Of a stretch of DNA of 8,848 nucleotides, positions 4,797-8,847 are shown in pieces. The DNA is from Candidatus Odinarchaeota archaeon (GTDB taxonomy: Archaea; Asgardarchaeota; Odinarchaeia; Odinarchaeales; Odinarchaeaceae). A program made the translations under genes and the position numbers. A model generated the notes under the pieces. It worked only from the letters and a program-made list of their open reading frames with translations. It made no database searches and was not told the origin of the DNA. Location: the NCBI GenBank assembly GCA_038826135.1, contig JAWBON010000025.1, positions 1 through 8,848 of the forward strand. Reading direction: 5' to 3'. Position 1 is the stretch's first letter. Each line of letters opens with the position of its first letter.

Positions 4797-6050
4797 TTAA
4801 GCGAGCGTTACTTCGATTTCCTCACCGAGGATTTCTTTAAGCTTCTCGGCTAGGGTTTTTAAATCTCTGTCTATTTTACCTTCTAGATTTTGGATCAGAG
4901 TTTCTATCTGGTCAGCGACTACTTTTTTATCGGCAAGCTGTTTTTCTATCTCCTCTATTTTAGATATTATAATCTCGGATTCTTCTATCAAACCTTTTTC
5001 AGCGATGATTGTTTTCAACTTTTCTTTTAATTCAATTGAAGCTTTAGCTTTAACATACAGTTCATCTAAAAATTCATCCCCTAATATTCTGCTGATTTGT
5101 TTAATAGCTCTGTCAGCTCTATCCTGTTTTAATTCCAGCTCATTGTCTAGGAGACTTCGCTGAAGAACTTTCAAAATCTGTTTCAACGCAGGTAACCCTT
5201 CTGTTTCAGATATGAAGGTGTTAAATGGCTCTGATATGTATTTATCAATCGTGTTTCTCTGCTCAGCTGTTAAATCAGCAAGCGCTTTAGATGAACTCTT
5301 AGTTAGTTTCGCTAAAGGTTTAAGAACAGGGTTTATTAGCATATTGAAGCTACGCCGAATATTATTTAACTCTTCATCAGCTTTCATATGCTCTTTCTGT
5401 AAACCTGTAGTCTTGAACTTTAAGTAGTTGTCTTCTTCAGTTTTAAGCTGTTTTTCTATTTCACATATTTCAATTTTAACTGATTCAAATTTATCTTGAA
5501 GATTTTTTTTCTCTTTTACTGATTCGATAAGCATGTTAGCCGAGTCGATTATTTTATCAACCCGTTCAATCTCCTTGTATTCTTTGAGTAGAAATTGATT
5601 GGTTTTATCAACCAGTTCGGCTAGTTTACGGATGTTGAAGTCTAAATCTTTAAGCTCTGTTTTAAACCAGGGAGTCATTTTAGGCACGAGCTTGCGACCA
5701 AGCTCGTTAATATTTAGAAAAAAATTTTTTACCTCGCTGTTAAGATTCATTAAACTATTATAGCTGCAGTTTTCATCAATCTTGATTTTATTAAGGTATT
5801 CTAGTATACTGTTACTTAGTTTTTCAGAGGCTTTAACAGCTAATTCATGGCTTTTAACATCTCCCTCCATTGTTTTAAACGCTTCCCGGCCTTTGCTTGT
5901 TAAAAATTTCTCAGCTGAGAGTTTTACCTGCCCTATTAAATCAATGATTTTCTGTTTACTTAACTGGGCTTTCACACGAAGGGGAGAGTAGCGTTTATCG
6001 TTTTTCTTATTAACATAGTCTTTAACCTCATCCAGCCTTATTTTAATCAT
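4797..6050 (-). CDS. Hypothetical all-helical/coiled-coil protein, about 417 aa
   Basis: Long K/E/L-rich heptad stretches flanking a central helical segment; no Walker A, no TM segment. ATG 6050 overlaps the end of dys and lies 6 nt after GAGCGTG (alternative start GTG 6059). Confidence 0.75.
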   Translation of the reverse strand: MIKIRLDEVKDYVNKKNDKRYSPLRVKAQLSKQKIIDLIGQVKLSAEKFLTSKGREAFKTMEGDVKSHELAVKASEKLSNSILEYLNKIKIDENCSYNSLMNLNSEVKNFFLNINELGRKLVPKMTPWFKTELKDLDFNIRKLAELVDKTNQFLLKEYKEIERVDKIIDSANMLIESVKEKKNLQDKFESVKIEICEIEKQLKTEEDNYLKFKTTGLQKEHMKADEELNNIRRSFNMLINPVLKPLAKLTKSSSKALADLTAEQRNTIDKYISEPFNTFISETEGLPALKQILKVLQRSLLDNELELKQDRADRAIKQISRILGDEFLDELYVKAKASIELKEKLKTIIAEKGLIEESEIIISKIEEIEKQLADKKVVADQIETLIQNLEGKIDRDLKTLAEKLKEILGEEIEVTLA

Positions 6051-7008
6051 TTTTTTCACGCTCAGTTTTCGATAAGCGTTCTTTAACAGCTGCTACAATT
6101 ATAGGAAGAACTATTGTCGCGTCAGCGATTAAATCCACCCAAGGGGCTTCACTTTTAATTTTACCCCATGATTGAGCTTCTCCAAGCGAGGCGCCGCTTA
6201 AACCACCAGGTTCAGGTCTGTCCATAGTTATCTGGATAGCGTAGTCGAATCCTCTTCCAGTGATCAGCATAGTCTGTAATATATGGTTTTTAGGAACACC
6301 GCCTCCGACTGATATGACGGCTGCGCGCTTAGATTCATAGGCCATGTCAATCATTTTTTGAATGTCTTTAAGAACATCCACTACTAGTGGTTTCCGCTGA
6401 CGGAAAAGCCATAGTTGAAGGCCTAGTATAGAATCTGTTATAGCCGGGCAGAAGACTGGGATGTTTTTTTCAACAGCGTTTTTTACTATAGAGTTCTCGT
6501 CGGTAAGGTGTCTTCCTATTTCCCATATTAATTCATACACTGCTATGCCTTTTTCACTTTTAACAGGATCTATTTCGCCAAGTATCCTTTGAATATTTTT
6601 CTCAAAATTTACGAACTCCCTGTTTCTCACATATATATCGTATATTCTGTTTATTCCAAGCCTGTGAAGATGAATATCACTGTAAGTTTTTGAGAGCCGG
6701 ATATGATGTCCGCCGAAGGCTTCAATAAGATCATGGGTTAAATTAGCCCCTGTTGTAACTATCGCGTTAATGTAATCTTCTCTCATCAAATCAACTACAA
6801 CTTTCCGCATACCAGCCGGTACTAGTGCGCCAGCTAAGCCTAAAAATCTTAAAGCTTCTTTATCAGACGCTATTTTCTCTAAAATATTCGCGGCTTCGCT
6901 GAGACGGCCTGCACCGAAAGCCCCGGATCTTTCAAATTGAAGCATTAACTCGTTTAATGACATCCCTGTTTTAATATTAATTGGGTGAACGAATCTTTCC
7001 TGATCCAT
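6043..7008 (-). CDS. dys: Deoxyhypusine synthase (aIF5A modification)
   Basis: FLGLAGALVPAGMR, IVTTGANLTHDLIE, NRIYD, FCPAITDSILG, GGGVPKNH and GGLSGASLGEAQSWGKI with the catalytic Lys of SWGK; GGGG SD 6 nt upstream of ATG. Confidence 0.95.
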   Translation of the reverse strand: MDQERFVHPINIKTGMSLNELMLQFERSGAFGAGRLSEAANILEKIASDKEALRFLGLAGALVPAGMRKVVVDLMREDYINAIVTTGANLTHDLIEAFGGHHIRLSKTYSDIHLHRLGINRIYDIYVRNREFVNFEKNIQRILGEIDPVKSEKGIAVYELIWEIGRHLTDENSIVKNAVEKNIPVFCPAITDSILGLQLWLFRQRKPLVVDVLKDIQKMIDMAYESKRAAVISVGGGVPKNHILQTMLITGRGFDYAIQITMDRPEPGGLSGASLGEAQSWGKIKSEAPWVDLIADATIVLPIIVAAVKERLSKTEREKND

Positions 7009-7112: not shown

Positions 7113-7120
7113 TTTATATA
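7113..7120 (+). promoter_or_regulatory. TATA box TTTATATA of the tRNA gene
   Basis: Consensus archaeal TATA 33-40 nt upstream of mature tRNA position 1. Confidence 0.65.
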
Positions 7121-7167
7121 ATAATGGGTTTTTTATGAGTATTGATTAATATAGCGGGGTGGGGTAG

Positions 7168-7192: not shown

Positions 7193-7199
7193 TCAGGAG

Positions 7200-7213
7200 A
7201 CCTTTGGCTTGAA
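7200..7213 (+). other. tRNA intron 2, position 20a/21, 14 nt
   Basis: Central helix CAGG(7194-97)/CTTG(7208-11); bulges AG|A and AA|A; outer helix CC/GG closing a TTT loop. Confidence 0.82.
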
Positions 7214-7230
7214 ATCCCGCGGGGCTCATA

Positions 7231-7247
7231 AAGAGAGCCCTGGAGAA
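7231..7247 (+). other. tRNA intron 3, canonical position 37/38, 17 nt (relaxed BHB)
   Basis: Removal restores CTCATA|ACCCCG. Central helix CTCA/GGAG has one A.G mismatch; bulges TA|A and AA|A; outer helix only AG/CT. Confidence 0.85.
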
Positions 7248-7255
7248 ACCCCGAG

Positions 7256-7281: not shown

Positions 7282-7307
7282 ATCGATGGTTCAAATCCAT
7301 CCCCCGC

Positions 7308-7337
7308 ACAGAATTATAGAACATGATTCTGGGGGAT
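7308..7337 (+). other. tRNA intron 5, position 71/72 in the acceptor stem, 30 nt
   Basis: Central helix CCCC(7302-05)/GGGG(7332-35); bulges GC|A and AT|T; 9-bp outer helix CAGAATTAT/ATGATTCTG. Removal gives CCCCGC|TACCA, restoring U72, A73 and CCA. Confidence 0.85.
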
Positions 7338-7367
7338 TACCAATGTCTCCTAAGTGGCGTATGCCAA

Positions 7368-7389
7368 CCCCGCTACCAATCCCCTGCTA
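7368..7389 (+). repeat. Two tandem downstream copies of the intron-less tRNA 3' end
   Basis: 7368-7380 CCCCGCTACCAAT equals spliced 7302-7307 + 7338-7344 (13/13). 7379-7389 ATCCCCTGCTA equals mature positions 63-73 with one substitution (10/11). Confidence 0.8.
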
Positions 7390-7393
7390 AAGA

Positions 7394-7402
7394 TTCTTTT
7401 TT
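7394..7402 (+). terminator. Oligo-T terminator candidate (TTCTTTTTT) for the tRNA transcript
   Basis: First T-run downstream of the tRNA; lies after the 3'-end repeats and before the convergent DUF35 stop at 7415. Confidence 0.5.
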
Positions 7403-7414
7403 AGAAAATTGTTT

Positions 7415-7822
7415 TCACATCACAGGGCGGAATTTGAAACCGTAGTGTATAACACCGTTCTCCCCGTCATCGTAGATTCTGCGTATGACGGCTTCTACAG
7501 GCATACCTATCTCTAACTTATCTACATCACAATCTGTTATTTGAGATAATACTTTAACACCGTTCTCTAGTTTGACTATAGCTATCGCATAGGGAACATA
7601 TATCTCGTATTTTAAAGGTGCCTGTCTAATGATTGTAAAAGATTCGATAACACCCTTCCTGGGTAGCGCTATTTTCTCAAGATTTTTAGATTTACAATTA
7701 TTACATACTGTTTTAGGTGGGAAGTATATATGATTGCAGGATAGGCATTTAGAAGCTTCTAGACGATAGTGTTGGGGTATTTCTCTCCATAATTTCGGAA
7801 CTCTTAATTCACTCGTGTTCAC
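7415..7822 (-). CDS. DUF35-family Zn-ribbon/OB-fold protein (thiolase partner)
   Basis: WREIPQHYRLEASKCLSCNHIYFPPKTVCNNC (CxxC...CxxC), then OB-fold ESFTIIR..PYAIAIVKLENGVKVLSQI..KLEIGMPVEAVIR; GTG overlaps the thiolase TGA. Confidence 0.92.
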   Translation of the reverse strand: MNTSELRVPKLWREIPQHYRLEASKCLSCNHIYFPPKTVCNNCKSKNLEKIALPRKGVIESFTIIRQAPLKYEIYVPYAIAIVKLENGVKVLSQITDCDVDKLEIGMPVEAVIRRIYDDGENGVIHYGFKFRPVM

Positions 7823-8847
7823 ACCCTCCTTAAAATTTGAATAGTTGAATTTGACCCGGCTCCGCTTAATGTTTGACTTAACCCTATTACAGGATTCGAG
7901 TCTATTTTCAGCTGCGCGTCGCCTCTTAATGTTAAAGCAATCTCAGCTGTCTGGTAGACGCCTGTTGCTCCTACAGGATGGCCTCTAGCTTTCAATCCGC
8001 CACTGATATTTACTGGTTTACCACCGTTCTTCGAGAAATAGCCTTCCTTTAACAGTTTCGCAGCTTCACCTCGCCTAGCGAAGCCTAGTTCCTCTAATGC
8101 CATTAAACCGTAAATAGTGTATGAGTCGAATATTTCAGCTACTTGAATATCTTCAGGTTTTATTTTAGCCATTTGATATGCTTTTTCAGCAGCTATTCTT
8201 ATTGATTTAAAGTCTAAGAGATCTTCTCTTTGAGTTAAACCTAGTGAATCTGAGGCTTGACCTATCCCTGAGATTTGAATAGGGGTGTCGGTTATTTTTT
8301 TAGCTTTTTCTAAGGGGCAGAGTATTAGGGCGGCAGCCCCGTCACCTAAAGGCGCGCAGTTCATTAATGTGATCGGGTCGGCTATAGGTCTAGCGTTAAT
8401 AATAGAGTCGATTGTCACTTCGAAGCGTAGCTGAGCGTAGGGATTGCTTACAGCGTTTTTATGGTCCTGTTGGGCTAGTAAAGCTATATCTTCAACACTT
8501 ACATTATATTTATGCATGTACAGTCTCATGACTAGTGCGGCTGCACCTTCAGGGGATAGGCCTTGAATAGTTTCATATTCATGGAATAACCCTAATGAAA
8601 TTATCGACTCAGCTTCGGCGGAGATAGCTTCAGACATTTTTTCAACGCCACCTACTAGAACGAAATCATGTGAGCCTGATGCGACATCGTTGAAGGCTGC
8701 GATTATAGCGCTGCCGCCTGAAGACTCACCTGTCTCTATTCTAGTCGCTGGGATATTGTTAAAACCAGCGAAGTCAACTAGCAGTGATGAAAGATTCTTC
8801 TGATGGTTAAATTCGTCAGCTGCCATATTACCTATGTAAGCTGCTTC
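7819..8847 (-). CDS. SCP2-type thiolase-fold protein (acetyl-CoA acetyltransferase-like), 5' end outside the window, catalytic motifs substituted
   Basis: Frame continues past ATG 8826 to the window edge (EAAYIGNMA). Motifs VGGVEKMS, CAPLGDGAAALIL, NISGGLKARGHPVGATG; ETGESSG at the nucleophile site and FDSY at the HDxF site. Confidence 0.88.
   Translation of the reverse strand, partial: EAAYIGNMAADEFNHQKNLSSLLVDFAGFNNIPATRIETGESSGGSAIIAAFNDVASGSHDFVLVGGVEKMSEAISAEAESIISLGLFHEYETIQGLSPEGAAALVMRLYMHKYNVSVEDIALLAQQDHKNAVSNPYAQLRFEVTIDSIINARPIADPITLMNCAPLGDGAAALILCPLEKAKKITDTPIQISGIGQASDSLGLTQREDLLDFKSIRIAAEKAYQMAKIKPEDIQVAEIFDSYTIYGLMALEELGFARRGEAAKLLKEGYFSKNGGKPVNISGGLKARGHPVGATGVYQTAEIALTLRGDAQLKIDSNPVIGLSQTLSGAGSNSTIQILRRV

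What the first reader, a model, noticed from the sequence alone, without database searches (positions are those of the whole stretch)
7345..7389. 3' trailer carries two copies of the spliced tRNA 3' end, a possible decoy acceptor strand that enables intron 5 folding
Seen: ACCCCGCTA (7367-7375) is perfectly complementary to TAGCGGGGT (7152-7160, 9 bp), and CCCTGCT (7382-7388) can also pair with bases 1-7 using one G:U. Both lie upstream of the T-run at 7394-7402, so they are probably co-transcribed. The intron 5 BHB needs C66-C69 to pair with intron GGGG rather than with G4-G7. Inference: the trailer sequesters the 5' acceptor strand so the BHB can form, acting as a cis-encoded RNA chaperone. 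Caveat: AATCCCCT (7378-7385) can instead pair with GGGGGATT (7331-7338) and block the BHB, so this may be a two-state switch.
Basis: partly seen in the sequence, partly recalled or inferred. Interest (0 to 1): 0.75.

Follow-up and report, generated by a model that had tools for sequence, protein, structure and literature searches.

The report
Stand-in acceptor arm in tRNA trailer
Behind the only initiator tRNA gene of this hot-spring Asgard (Odinarchaeia) archaeon lies a conserved, structured tail that repeats the tRNA's own 3' end. It most likely pairs with the front of the unspliced precursor, so that an intron sitting one base from the end of the acceptor stem can be cut out and the last five bases joined on.

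Summary
ACCCCGCTA (7367-7375) is the exact complement of 7152-7160. CCCCGCTACCAAT (7368-7380) repeats the spliced junction CCCCGC|TACCAAT.

The gene is the sole initiator tRNA-Met of an Odinarchaeia MAG. It has five BHB introns, and intron 5 (7308-7337, position 71/72) leaves a 5-nt 3' exon, UACCA.

The copy is not a chance match or a decaying scar. All seven known sequences with intron 5 (three deep lineages) keep the same trailer plan:
- a strand pairing with exon 2 and the start of intron 2, with one position fully compensatory;
- a 5-bp hairpin with compensatory changes;
- directly abutting it, CCCCGCU-N-CCA.

Sequence beyond that point is unrelated between lineages. Thirteen Asgard initiator genes without the intron lack the copy.

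No BHB can splice onto the copy, and its "discriminator" is G in two species. The first UACCA is therefore the mature end.

Best reading (about 0.55): a surrogate acceptor arm that tethers the tiny 3' exon and keeps the 5' strand off C66-C71. The in-silico "decoy" effect is modest (1-3 kcal/mol). The second copy (7382-7388) and the proposed switch occur only in G000. No RNA data were available.

An earlier report of this scan (e1-5424752), on this same DNA, had already mentioned the helper trailer.

The parts
7153..7159 (+). 5' acceptor strand A1-G7 of the initiator tRNA. U-1 (7152) and U8 (7160) flank it. It is the partner of copy 2 in the precursor (helix A) and of C66-U72 in the mature tRNA.
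   Evidence: I1.
7195..7204 (+). 5' strand of helix B: exon 2 AGGAGA plus the first nucleotides of intron 2. It contains the 5' splice site of intron 2.
   Evidence: I3, 10 nt, 90%; 7-10 bp in all 7 sequences; position 6 is U:A, G:C or C:G in the three lineages.
7302..7307 (+). Native acceptor 3' strand C66-C71. C66-C69 form the central BHB helix with G7332-7335.
7308..7337 (+). Intron 5 (30 nt, position 71/72). Bulges are GC|A and AU|U; h' is CAGAAU / AUUCUG.
   Evidence: H of 4 bp and h' of 4-10 bp in all 7 sequences, exon-exon helix 0 bp; h' covaries at pairs 2, 3 and 4.
7338..7342 (+). 3' exon U72-A73-C74-C75-A76, invariant in all 7 sequences.
7342..7351 (+). Trailer strand of helix B (AAUGUCUCCU).
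   Evidence: I3.
7354..7367 (+). Trailer hairpin UGGC GUAU GCCA. The closing position is a G.A mismatch in G000 and a full fifth pair in the other six sequences. It abuts copy 2 with no spacer.
7368..7378 (+). Copy 2: CCCCGCU (surrogate 66-72), then N73' (A here, G in G001 and G002), then CCA.
7382..7388 (+). Degenerate third copy CCCTGCT, present only in G000. No evidence of function.
   Evidence: D2.
7394..7402 (+). T-run, the likely transcription stop downstream of copy 2.
   Evidence: T-rich tracts follow copy 2 in the relatives too ('post' column). Termination itself was not tested.

Best explanation
The 36-nt trailer (7343-7378) is a functional, cis-acting part of the initiator pre-tRNA: a surrogate acceptor arm.

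Proposed mechanism (inferred, not shown):
1. In the unspliced transcript, CCCCGCU (7368-7374) pairs with A1-G7. The abutting 5-bp hairpin stacks on that helix, giving a 12-bp stack like the tRNA top half that ends in N-CCA.
2. The trailer segment just after the 3' exon pairs with exon 2 and the start of intron 2 (helix B).
3. This keeps the 5' strand off C66-C71, so C66-C69 can form the central BHB helix with the intron's GGGG.
4. It prevents end-processing enzymes from treating the intron as a trailer.
5. It holds the 5-nt 3' exon (UACCA), which has no pairing of its own to the tRNA body, next to C71 for ligation after EndA cuts.
6. After ligation the real 66-72 strand replaces the surrogate and the trailer is trimmed back to the first CCA.

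Shown here: the sequence features, their conservation and covariation, the BHB geometry, and the predicted pairings.
Inferred: co-transcription, the tether and protection roles, the strand swap, and the trimming.
For: Gene and essentiality:
- In-silico splicing gives a 78-nt tRNA-Met(CAT) with A1:U72 that matches other Asgard initiators.
- It is the only initiator gene in G000 and in the one-contig relative G002.

Conservation:
- Four species of the genus keep the trailer up to CCAAT and then diverge completely.
- The second family of the order (G004, G005) and a third metagenomic lineage (L040) keep the same plan with different sequence.

Covariation:
- Hairpin pairs 1, 2 and 5 change on both sides: C:G to U:A, U:A to C:G, and C:G to A:U or G.U.
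- Helix B position 6 is U:A, G:C or C:G in the three lineages.
- h' of intron 5 covaries at three pairs.

Geometry:
- The hairpin abuts copy 2 with no spacer in 6 of 7 sequences.
- 5 + 7 = 12 bp, followed by N-CCA.

Splicing logic:
- Only 71/72 to the first UACCA forms a BHB.
- The exon-exon helix is 0 bp in all 7, so nothing else holds the 3' exon.

Folding:
- With the trailer, P(1-7:copy 2) is 0.87-1.0 and native pairing is 0.00.
- Without it, native pairing reaches 0.98 and the BHB helix is about 0.01.
- The trailer lowers the cost of forcing the BHB in all 7 sequences.

Association:
- 7 of 7 genes with intron 5 have the copy.
- 0 of 13 Asgard initiator genes without the intron have it.
- No intron-5 pattern without the copy was found in 400 Asgard genomes.

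Enzymes: RNase P RNA, EndA subunits and RNase Z are all present.
Against: - There is no RNA evidence. Transcript ends, splicing order and the mature 3' end are all unobserved.
- All carriers form one clade (Odinarchaeia), so the intron-copy association counts as a single evolutionary event.
- Helix A itself is invariant. Its pairing is therefore supported only by conservation, context and folding, not by covariation.
- The thermodynamic benefit for the BHB is modest (1-3 kcal/mol at 37 C; 0.1-0.8 at 70 C). In the window's genus, either helix alone suffices.
- In the second family and in L040 the BHB helix is still predicted at P below 0.1 with the trailer.
- After full splicing the model still strongly prefers the trailer-bound state (P 0.98). 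An unexplained release step is therefore needed.
- Helix B buries the 5' splice site of intron 2. This needs an ordered pathway that is not shown.
Confidence: 0.55

Rival explanations
1. Copy 2 is the real mature 3' end. Everything from C66 (7302) to the hairpin would then be removed, and the first CCCCGC...UACCA would be intronic.
For: Copy 2 gives a perfect 7-bp acceptor stem plus N-CCA. It is the thermodynamically preferred partner of the 5' strand even after splicing. Its CCA is conserved.
Against: - No BHB can be drawn for any junction 65/66 to 71/72 onto copy 2 in any of the 7 sequences.
- Its discriminator is G in G001 and G002. By contrast, all 13 other Asgard initiators and the first UACCA have A73.
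- The first UACCA and the 71/72 BHB are invariant or covarying. Intronic sequence would not need that.
- The acceptor helix would stack on a tetraloop hairpin instead of the T arm.
Confidence: 0.1
2. A non-functional scar: a leftover direct repeat of the tRNA 3' end, from an integrative element (att site) or a tandem duplication, now decaying.
For: Direct repeats of tRNA 3' ends are the usual footprint of archaeal integrases (established knowledge). G000 has a further degenerate copy at 7379-7387 (D2). An earlier first-reader note (e1-5424754) proposed this.
Against: - The repeat is only 25-32 nt from the 3' exon, with no element between.
- The neighbours are deoxyhypusine synthase and a DUF35/thiolase pair; there is no integrase.
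- The copy is kept letter for letter in three deep lineages, while the DNA just after it is unrelated.
- The adjacent hairpin and helix B show compensatory changes.

A duplication may still be how the element arose.
Confidence: 0.08
3. The trailer is functional but for another purpose. Candidates are ordering or quality control of intron removal (helix B masks the intron-2 splice site), stabilising the precursor at high temperature, or presenting a tRNA-like minihelix end to RNase P, RNase Z or the CCA enzyme. Under this rival it would not be needed for intron-5 splicing itself.
For: - Helix B covers the 5' splice site of intron 2, and its covariation involves intron-2 bases.
- N-CCA conservation is not needed for a simple decoy.
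- The BHB cost without the trailer is only about 3 kcal/mol.
- RNase P and RNase Z are present.
Against: The element is found only together with intron 5. Its core is an exact copy of the strand that intron 5 interrupts. Other multi-intron tRNAs of G000 with intact T arms show no such trailer.
Confidence: 0.2

Closest known systems
Split tRNA genes of Nanoarchaeum equitans and Caldivirga (trans-splicing; Randau et al. 2005, as reviewed in PMC4090602)
   Same: Extra sequence outside the mature tRNA base-pairs to hold two exon-bearing pieces together, so that the splicing endonuclease and ligase can act.
   Different: - Here the helper is in cis, on a single transcript.
- It is a copy of the tRNA's own acceptor 3' strand and pairs with mature tRNA sequence, not with another extension.
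- It does not itself form the BHB.
Non-canonical BHB introns of multi-intron archaeal tRNAs (Thermoproteales, maximum three introns per PMC4033280; heavily interrupted Asgard tRNA genes, PMC11291895 and bioRxiv 10.64898/2026.10.13.758758)
   Same: Intron 5 is a relaxed HBh' motif with a 4-bp central helix and two 3-nt bulges. EndA subunit genes are present in the genome.
   Different: The position is 71/72, which leaves a 5-nt 3' exon with no exon-exon helix. A conserved helper structure sits in the trailer. None of the papers read describes such a helper, and the 2026 census only mentions a few acceptor-stem insertions.
Permuted tRNA genes and pre-rRNA processing stems
   Same: Leader and trailer sequences pair to build the structure needed for endonuclease processing.
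   Different: In those systems the leader-trailer helix carries the BHB and is cut. Here no BHB involves copy 2.
tRNA acceptor/T-arm minihelix and tRNA-like 3' ends (12-bp top half, N73, CCA; PMC4033280)
   Same: 7-bp helix A plus a 5-bp abutting hairpin gives 12 bp, followed by N-CCA.
   Different: The loop has 4-5 nt without the T-loop sequence. The helix is assembled from the two ends of a 230-nt precursor. Recognition by RNase P, RNase Z or the CCA enzyme was not tested.
att-site duplications of tRNA 3' ends left by archaeal integrative elements
   Same: A direct repeat of the tRNA 3' end lies downstream of the gene.
   Different: There is no inserted element or integrase. The spacing is 25-32 nt. 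The repeat is conserved, with a covarying flanking structure, across three lineages.

Membership tests
Archaeal BHB intron (intron 5, the context of the finding) | 4-bp central helix flanked by two 3-nt bulges on opposite strands, with cleavage after the second bulge base | tested here: met
   CCCC / GGGG with bulges GC|A and AU|U in all 7 sequences.
Archaeal BHB intron (intron 5, the context of the finding) | Outer helices h (exon-exon) and h' (intron-intron) | tested here: inconclusive
   h' is 4-10 bp and covaries. h is 0 bp in all 7, so the motif is a relaxed HBh' rather than a strict hBHBh'.
Archaeal BHB intron (intron 5, the context of the finding) | Splicing restores a canonical tRNA; the endonuclease is encoded | tested here: met
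   ARAGORN calls the spliced product a 78-nt tRNA-Met(CAT). PF01974 hits on three contigs exceed the cut-off. Cleavage itself was not tested.
Integrase att-site duplication | Direct repeats of the tRNA 3' part flanking an integrated element with an integrase gene | tested here: not met
   Only 25 nt lie between the repeats. The neighbours are deoxyhypusine synthase, a DUF35-like protein and a thiolase.
Split / trans-spliced tRNA | Exons on separate transcription units, joined through complementary leader and trailer | tested here: not met
   One contiguous gene, 226 nt from A1 to the CCA of copy 2, behind one TATA-like box. An internal promoter was not specifically sought.
tRNA top-half minihelix mimic | 12-bp coaxial stack (7 + 5) with no spacer, then a single discriminator base and CCA | tested here: met
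   5-bp hairpin abutting CCCCGCU-N-CCA in 6 of 7 sequences. G000 has 4 bp plus a G.A pair.
tRNA top-half minihelix mimic | T-loop (7 nt, UUCRANY) and recognition by RNase P, RNase Z or the CCA enzyme | tested here: not met
   The loops are GUAU, UUAU, UAAA and UUAUA. Enzyme recognition cannot be tested with these tools.

The most novel reading that the evidence does not exclude
Maturation of this initiator tRNA requires an obligatory acceptor-stem swap.
- The trailer builds a complete outer pseudo-cloverleaf: a surrogate acceptor helix, a T-arm-like hairpin with N-CCA, helix B in the place of the anticodon stem, and the intron-1 hairpin in the place of the D arm.
- RNase P and the 3'-end enzymes would therefore handle the precursor as a tRNA, and would not cut inside intron 5, while the true acceptor 3' strand is still being spliced together.
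- The real strand then displaces the surrogate.

This would be a cis-encoded RNA chaperone and tether of a kind not described for any tRNA.
Probability: 0.3. Interest if true: 0.8.

Novelty: new variant of a known kind. Interest (0 to 1): 0.6.

Why it matters
An intron one base from the end of the acceptor stem raises a problem that ordinary tRNA introns do not. The stem that the processing enzymes read cannot coexist with the splicing motif, and the 5-nt 3' exon has nothing to hold it in place once it is cut.

A conserved surrogate acceptor arm in the trailer would be a simple RNA-only solution. It would show how Asgard archaea tolerate extreme fragmentation of an essential single-copy gene.

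It would also extend the logic of split tRNAs (helper pairing outside the mature sequence) to a cis element.

It gives a clean testable prediction: A73, not G73, in species whose copy carries G.

Practically, it explains why tRNA finders miss the initiator gene here. It also warns annotators against taking the downstream copy for the 3' end.

Tried and rejected
- **RNA evidence.** No RNA holder was listed for the stretch. The one raw metatranscriptome run of a related study laid no reads, which is no test.
- **Standard finders.** ARAGORN and Rfam at gathering threshold find nothing in the window. The Rfam tRNA model gives only a partial hit of 17.9 bits.
- **Splicing onto copy 2.** No BHB exists for any register, and no outer helices exist for a cut at GC|U of copy 2.
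- **Generalisation within G000.** A scan of all T arms found no other tRNA whose acceptor 3' strand is displaced downstream. The extra hits were a neighbouring tRNA or chance.
- **Phylum scan for the intron-5 pattern.** The 10 hits outside Odinarchaeia lack a T arm and are at the level of the reversed-pattern control.
- **Collection scans.** Three bacterial hits and L039 are chance matches.
- **MAFFT alignments.** They put the second family's trailer and the L040 hairpin out of register, so pairs were counted per sequence in a script.
- **RNAalifold.** On my anchored alignment it paired the trailer UCUCC with intron 3 GGAGA instead of exon 2. That alternative is only 3-5 bp and is not conserved.
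- **Shuffling copy 2.** This was uninformative because the shuffles stay C-rich. It was replaced by A-substitutions.
- **A C/D-box guide in the trailer.** No C or D boxes are seen by eye.
- **A second initiator gene.** The other CCCCGCTACCA sites in G002 and G005 lie in coding-like sequence without a T arm.

Full report
**1. What is there**

The window is part of one contig of a 1.26-Mb, 93%-complete archaeal MAG. Exact-pattern hits in public genomes name its relatives as Candidatus Odinarchaeia / Promethearchaeota, that is Asgard archaea. DNA holders of the stretch are hot-spring metagenomes.

Between a TATA-like box (about 7113-7121) and a T-run (7394-7402) lies a gene that ARAGORN and Rfam miss. 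I compared it with other Asgard initiator tRNAs found by ARAGORN in related loci. This gives six exons:

| Exon | Coordinates |
|---|---|
| 1 | 7153-7167 |
| 2 | 7193-7199 |
| 3 | 7214-7230 |
| 4 | 7248-7255 |
| 5 | 7282-7307 |
| 6 | 7338-7342 |

Joined, they form a 78-nt tRNA-Met(CAT). It has A1:U72, A73, three G:C pairs in the anticodon stem and an encoded CCA.

It is the only initiator gene in this assembly and in a one-contig relative, so it must work.

**2. The observation**

- 7367-7375 (ACCCCGCTA) is the exact reverse complement of 7152-7160.
- The copy also repeats the spliced junction over 13 nt: CCCCGC|TACCAAT against 7368-7380.
- CCCCGCT[AG]CCA occurs once in the whole genome.
- The second "copy" (7382-7388) and the AATCCCC / GGGGATT pairing exist but are absent from every relative.

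**3. Intron 5 and which CCA is the real end**

I tested every junction with the BHB rule: a 4-bp central helix, then two bulge bases before each cut.
- Only 71/72 joined to the first UACCA works. C66-C69 pair with G7332-7335, the bulges are GC|A and AU|U, and h' is CAGAAU / AUUCUG.
- This holds in all seven sequences, and h' covaries at three pairs.
- No register joins to copy 2.
- The base after copy 2's CCCCGCU is G in two species. The first UACCA and 13 other Asgard initiators all have A73.

So the first UACCA is the mature end and copy 2 is trailer.

**4. The trailer is a conserved structure, not a scar**

Seven distinct sequences are available:
- four species of the window's genus (G000 to G003);
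- two species of the second family of the order (G004, G005);
- one metagenomic contig from a third lineage (L040).

The intron sets differ between lineages. The second family has a sixth intron in the T loop. L040 lacks intron 4 and has its own T-loop intron. Yet all seven share the same plan after UACCA:

(a) **Helix B.** 0-5 nt downstream of the CCA, a strand pairs with exon 2 AGGAGA plus the first bases of intron 2.
- It is 7 bp in the genus, 10 bp in the second family and 9 bp in L040.
- Position 6 reads U:A, G:C and C:G in the three lineages.

(b) **Spacer.** 2-6 nt.

(c) **Hairpin.** A 5-bp stem whose pairs 1, 2 and 5 change on both sides: CUGGC/GCCAG, CCGGA/UCCGG, UUGGC/GCCAA. G000 has a G.A closing pair.

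(d) **Copy 2.** CCCCGCU-N-CCA follows the hairpin with no spacer.

Immediately after that the lineages are unrelated. The neighbours are housekeeping genes and there is no integrase.

The hairpin (5 bp) plus helix A (7 bp) gives the 12-bp length of a tRNA acceptor/T-arm stack, ending in N-CCA.

**5. Association with the intron**

- All 7 genes with intron 5 carry the element.
- None of 13 Asgard initiator genes with an uninterrupted acceptor strand has a second copy within 150 nt.
- A scan of 400 Asgard genomes found the intron-5 pattern only in the two Odinarchaeial families. Every other hit was a chance match without a T arm.
- All carriers belong to one clade, so this is one evolutionary event, not seven.
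- In G000 no other tRNA with an intact T arm has a displaced acceptor strand.

**6. Folding**

| Quantity | With trailer | Without trailer |
|---|---|---|
| P(5' strand : copy 2) | 0.87-1.0 | n/a |
| P(5' strand : C66-C71) | 0.00 | up to 0.98 |
| P(central BHB helix), genus, 37 C | 0.53-0.69 | about 0.01 |

- In the second family and L040 the BHB helix stays below 0.1 even with the trailer.
- Forcing the BHB costs about 3 kcal/mol without the trailer. With it the cost is 0.3-2.7 kcal/mol at 37 C.
- At 70 C the saving is only 0.1-0.8 kcal/mol.
- In the genus, either helix A or helix B alone gives most of the saving.
- After all introns are removed in silico, the trailer-bound state is still strongly preferred.

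**7. Mechanism**

It is not compelling on its own, and it does not explain helix B, the abutting hairpin or the conserved N-CCA.

Three points carry the argument:
- The exon-exon helix of intron 5 is 0 bp in every lineage. Once EndA has cut, UACCA is attached to the tRNA body only through the trailer's helices A and B. This is the same logic as the complementary extensions that hold split-tRNA halves together (PMC4090602).
- If A1-G7 paired with C66-C71 in the precursor, the acceptor/T-arm stack would present intron bases at positions 72 and 73. RNase Z, which the genome encodes, would then see intron bases there. Capturing the 5' strand in a surrogate arm that ends in N-CCA would avoid this. 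This step is inference.
- Helix B buries the 5' splice site of intron 2, and its covariation involves intron-2 bases. It therefore forms on RNA in which intron 2 is still present. This suggests an ordered pathway, which is not shown.

I therefore read the trailer as a surrogate acceptor arm and tether (confidence about 0.55). How the trailer is released and trimmed is open.

**8. Rivals**

| Rival | Confidence | Main evidence against |
|---|---|---|
| Copy 2 is the true 3' end | 0.1 | No BHB; G73 in two species; invariance of the first UACCA |
| Inert att or duplication scar | 0.08 | Deep conservation and covariation; a duplication may still be the origin |
| Functional, but for ordering, quality control or end processing rather than intron-5 splicing | 0.2 | Not excluded; overlaps the best reading |

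**9. Novelty and context**

- Heavily interrupted Asgard tRNA genes are published (PMC11291895; bioRxiv 10.64898/2026.10.13.758758). Incomplete tRNA sets in Asgard genomes, including Odinarchaeota LCB_4, were noted in 2018 (PMC5829648).
- None of the papers I read mentions a trailer copy of the acceptor strand.
- An earlier follow-up in this scan, on this same DNA (e1-5424752), already remarked that the 3' exon seems helped by a trailer that pairs with the front of the precursor. I reached the same view independently. I add the third lineage, the pair table, the BHB exclusion of copy 2, the G73 argument and the energy estimates.
- I class it as a new variant of a known kind: BHB intron processing with a helper pairing.

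Noticed in passing
L006/L007 (G005, G004) and L040, aligned in A2/A3: Intron content of the same initiator gene differs between Odinarchaeial lineages. The second family has a sixth intron in the T loop (about 30 nt after TTCAAA). L040 lacks intron 4 and has a different T-loop intron. Six introns exceeds the maximum of three given in the 2014 review (PMC4033280).
   Followed up: partly
window 7132-7139 and 7225-7232: TTTATGAG upstream of the tRNA is a perfect complement of the anticodon loop CTCATAAA and is conserved in the genus. It probably lies upstream of the transcription start (TATA-like box at about 7113-7121), so it may be a promoter element rather than RNA structure.
   Followed up: no
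window 7299-7305 / 7331-7337: In G000 only, ATCCCCC pairs with GGGGGAT over 7 bp. This extends the central BHB helix into the T stem and would swallow the 3' bulge. The relatives have GGGGGAA.
   Followed up: partly
G000 contig C25:11775-12131 (beyond the window's end): The archaeal RNase P RNA gene (191.5 bits) lies on the same contig, about 4.4 kb downstream of the initiator tRNA gene.
   Followed up: no
G000 genome-wide: ARAGORN reports 31 tRNAs, most with introns. They include three 'tRNA-Stop(tta)' calls and an Ile call with a 328-nt intron. These are probably multi-intron genes that were modelled wrongly, so the tRNA set needs a BHB-aware re-annotation.
   Followed up: no
L006 (G005) trailer: The G005 trailer has a U4 tract (TCTCTTTTCAG) between helix B and the hairpin. 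This could be a weak termination signal inside the element.
   Followed up: no
window 6043-7008 (-), 7415-8826 (-): The flanking genes are deoxyhypusine synthase upstream and a DUF35/ChsH2-like OB-fold protein plus a thiolase downstream (the archaeal acetoacetyl-CoA thiolase pair). Within the genus the downstream gene is syntenic.
   Followed up: partly
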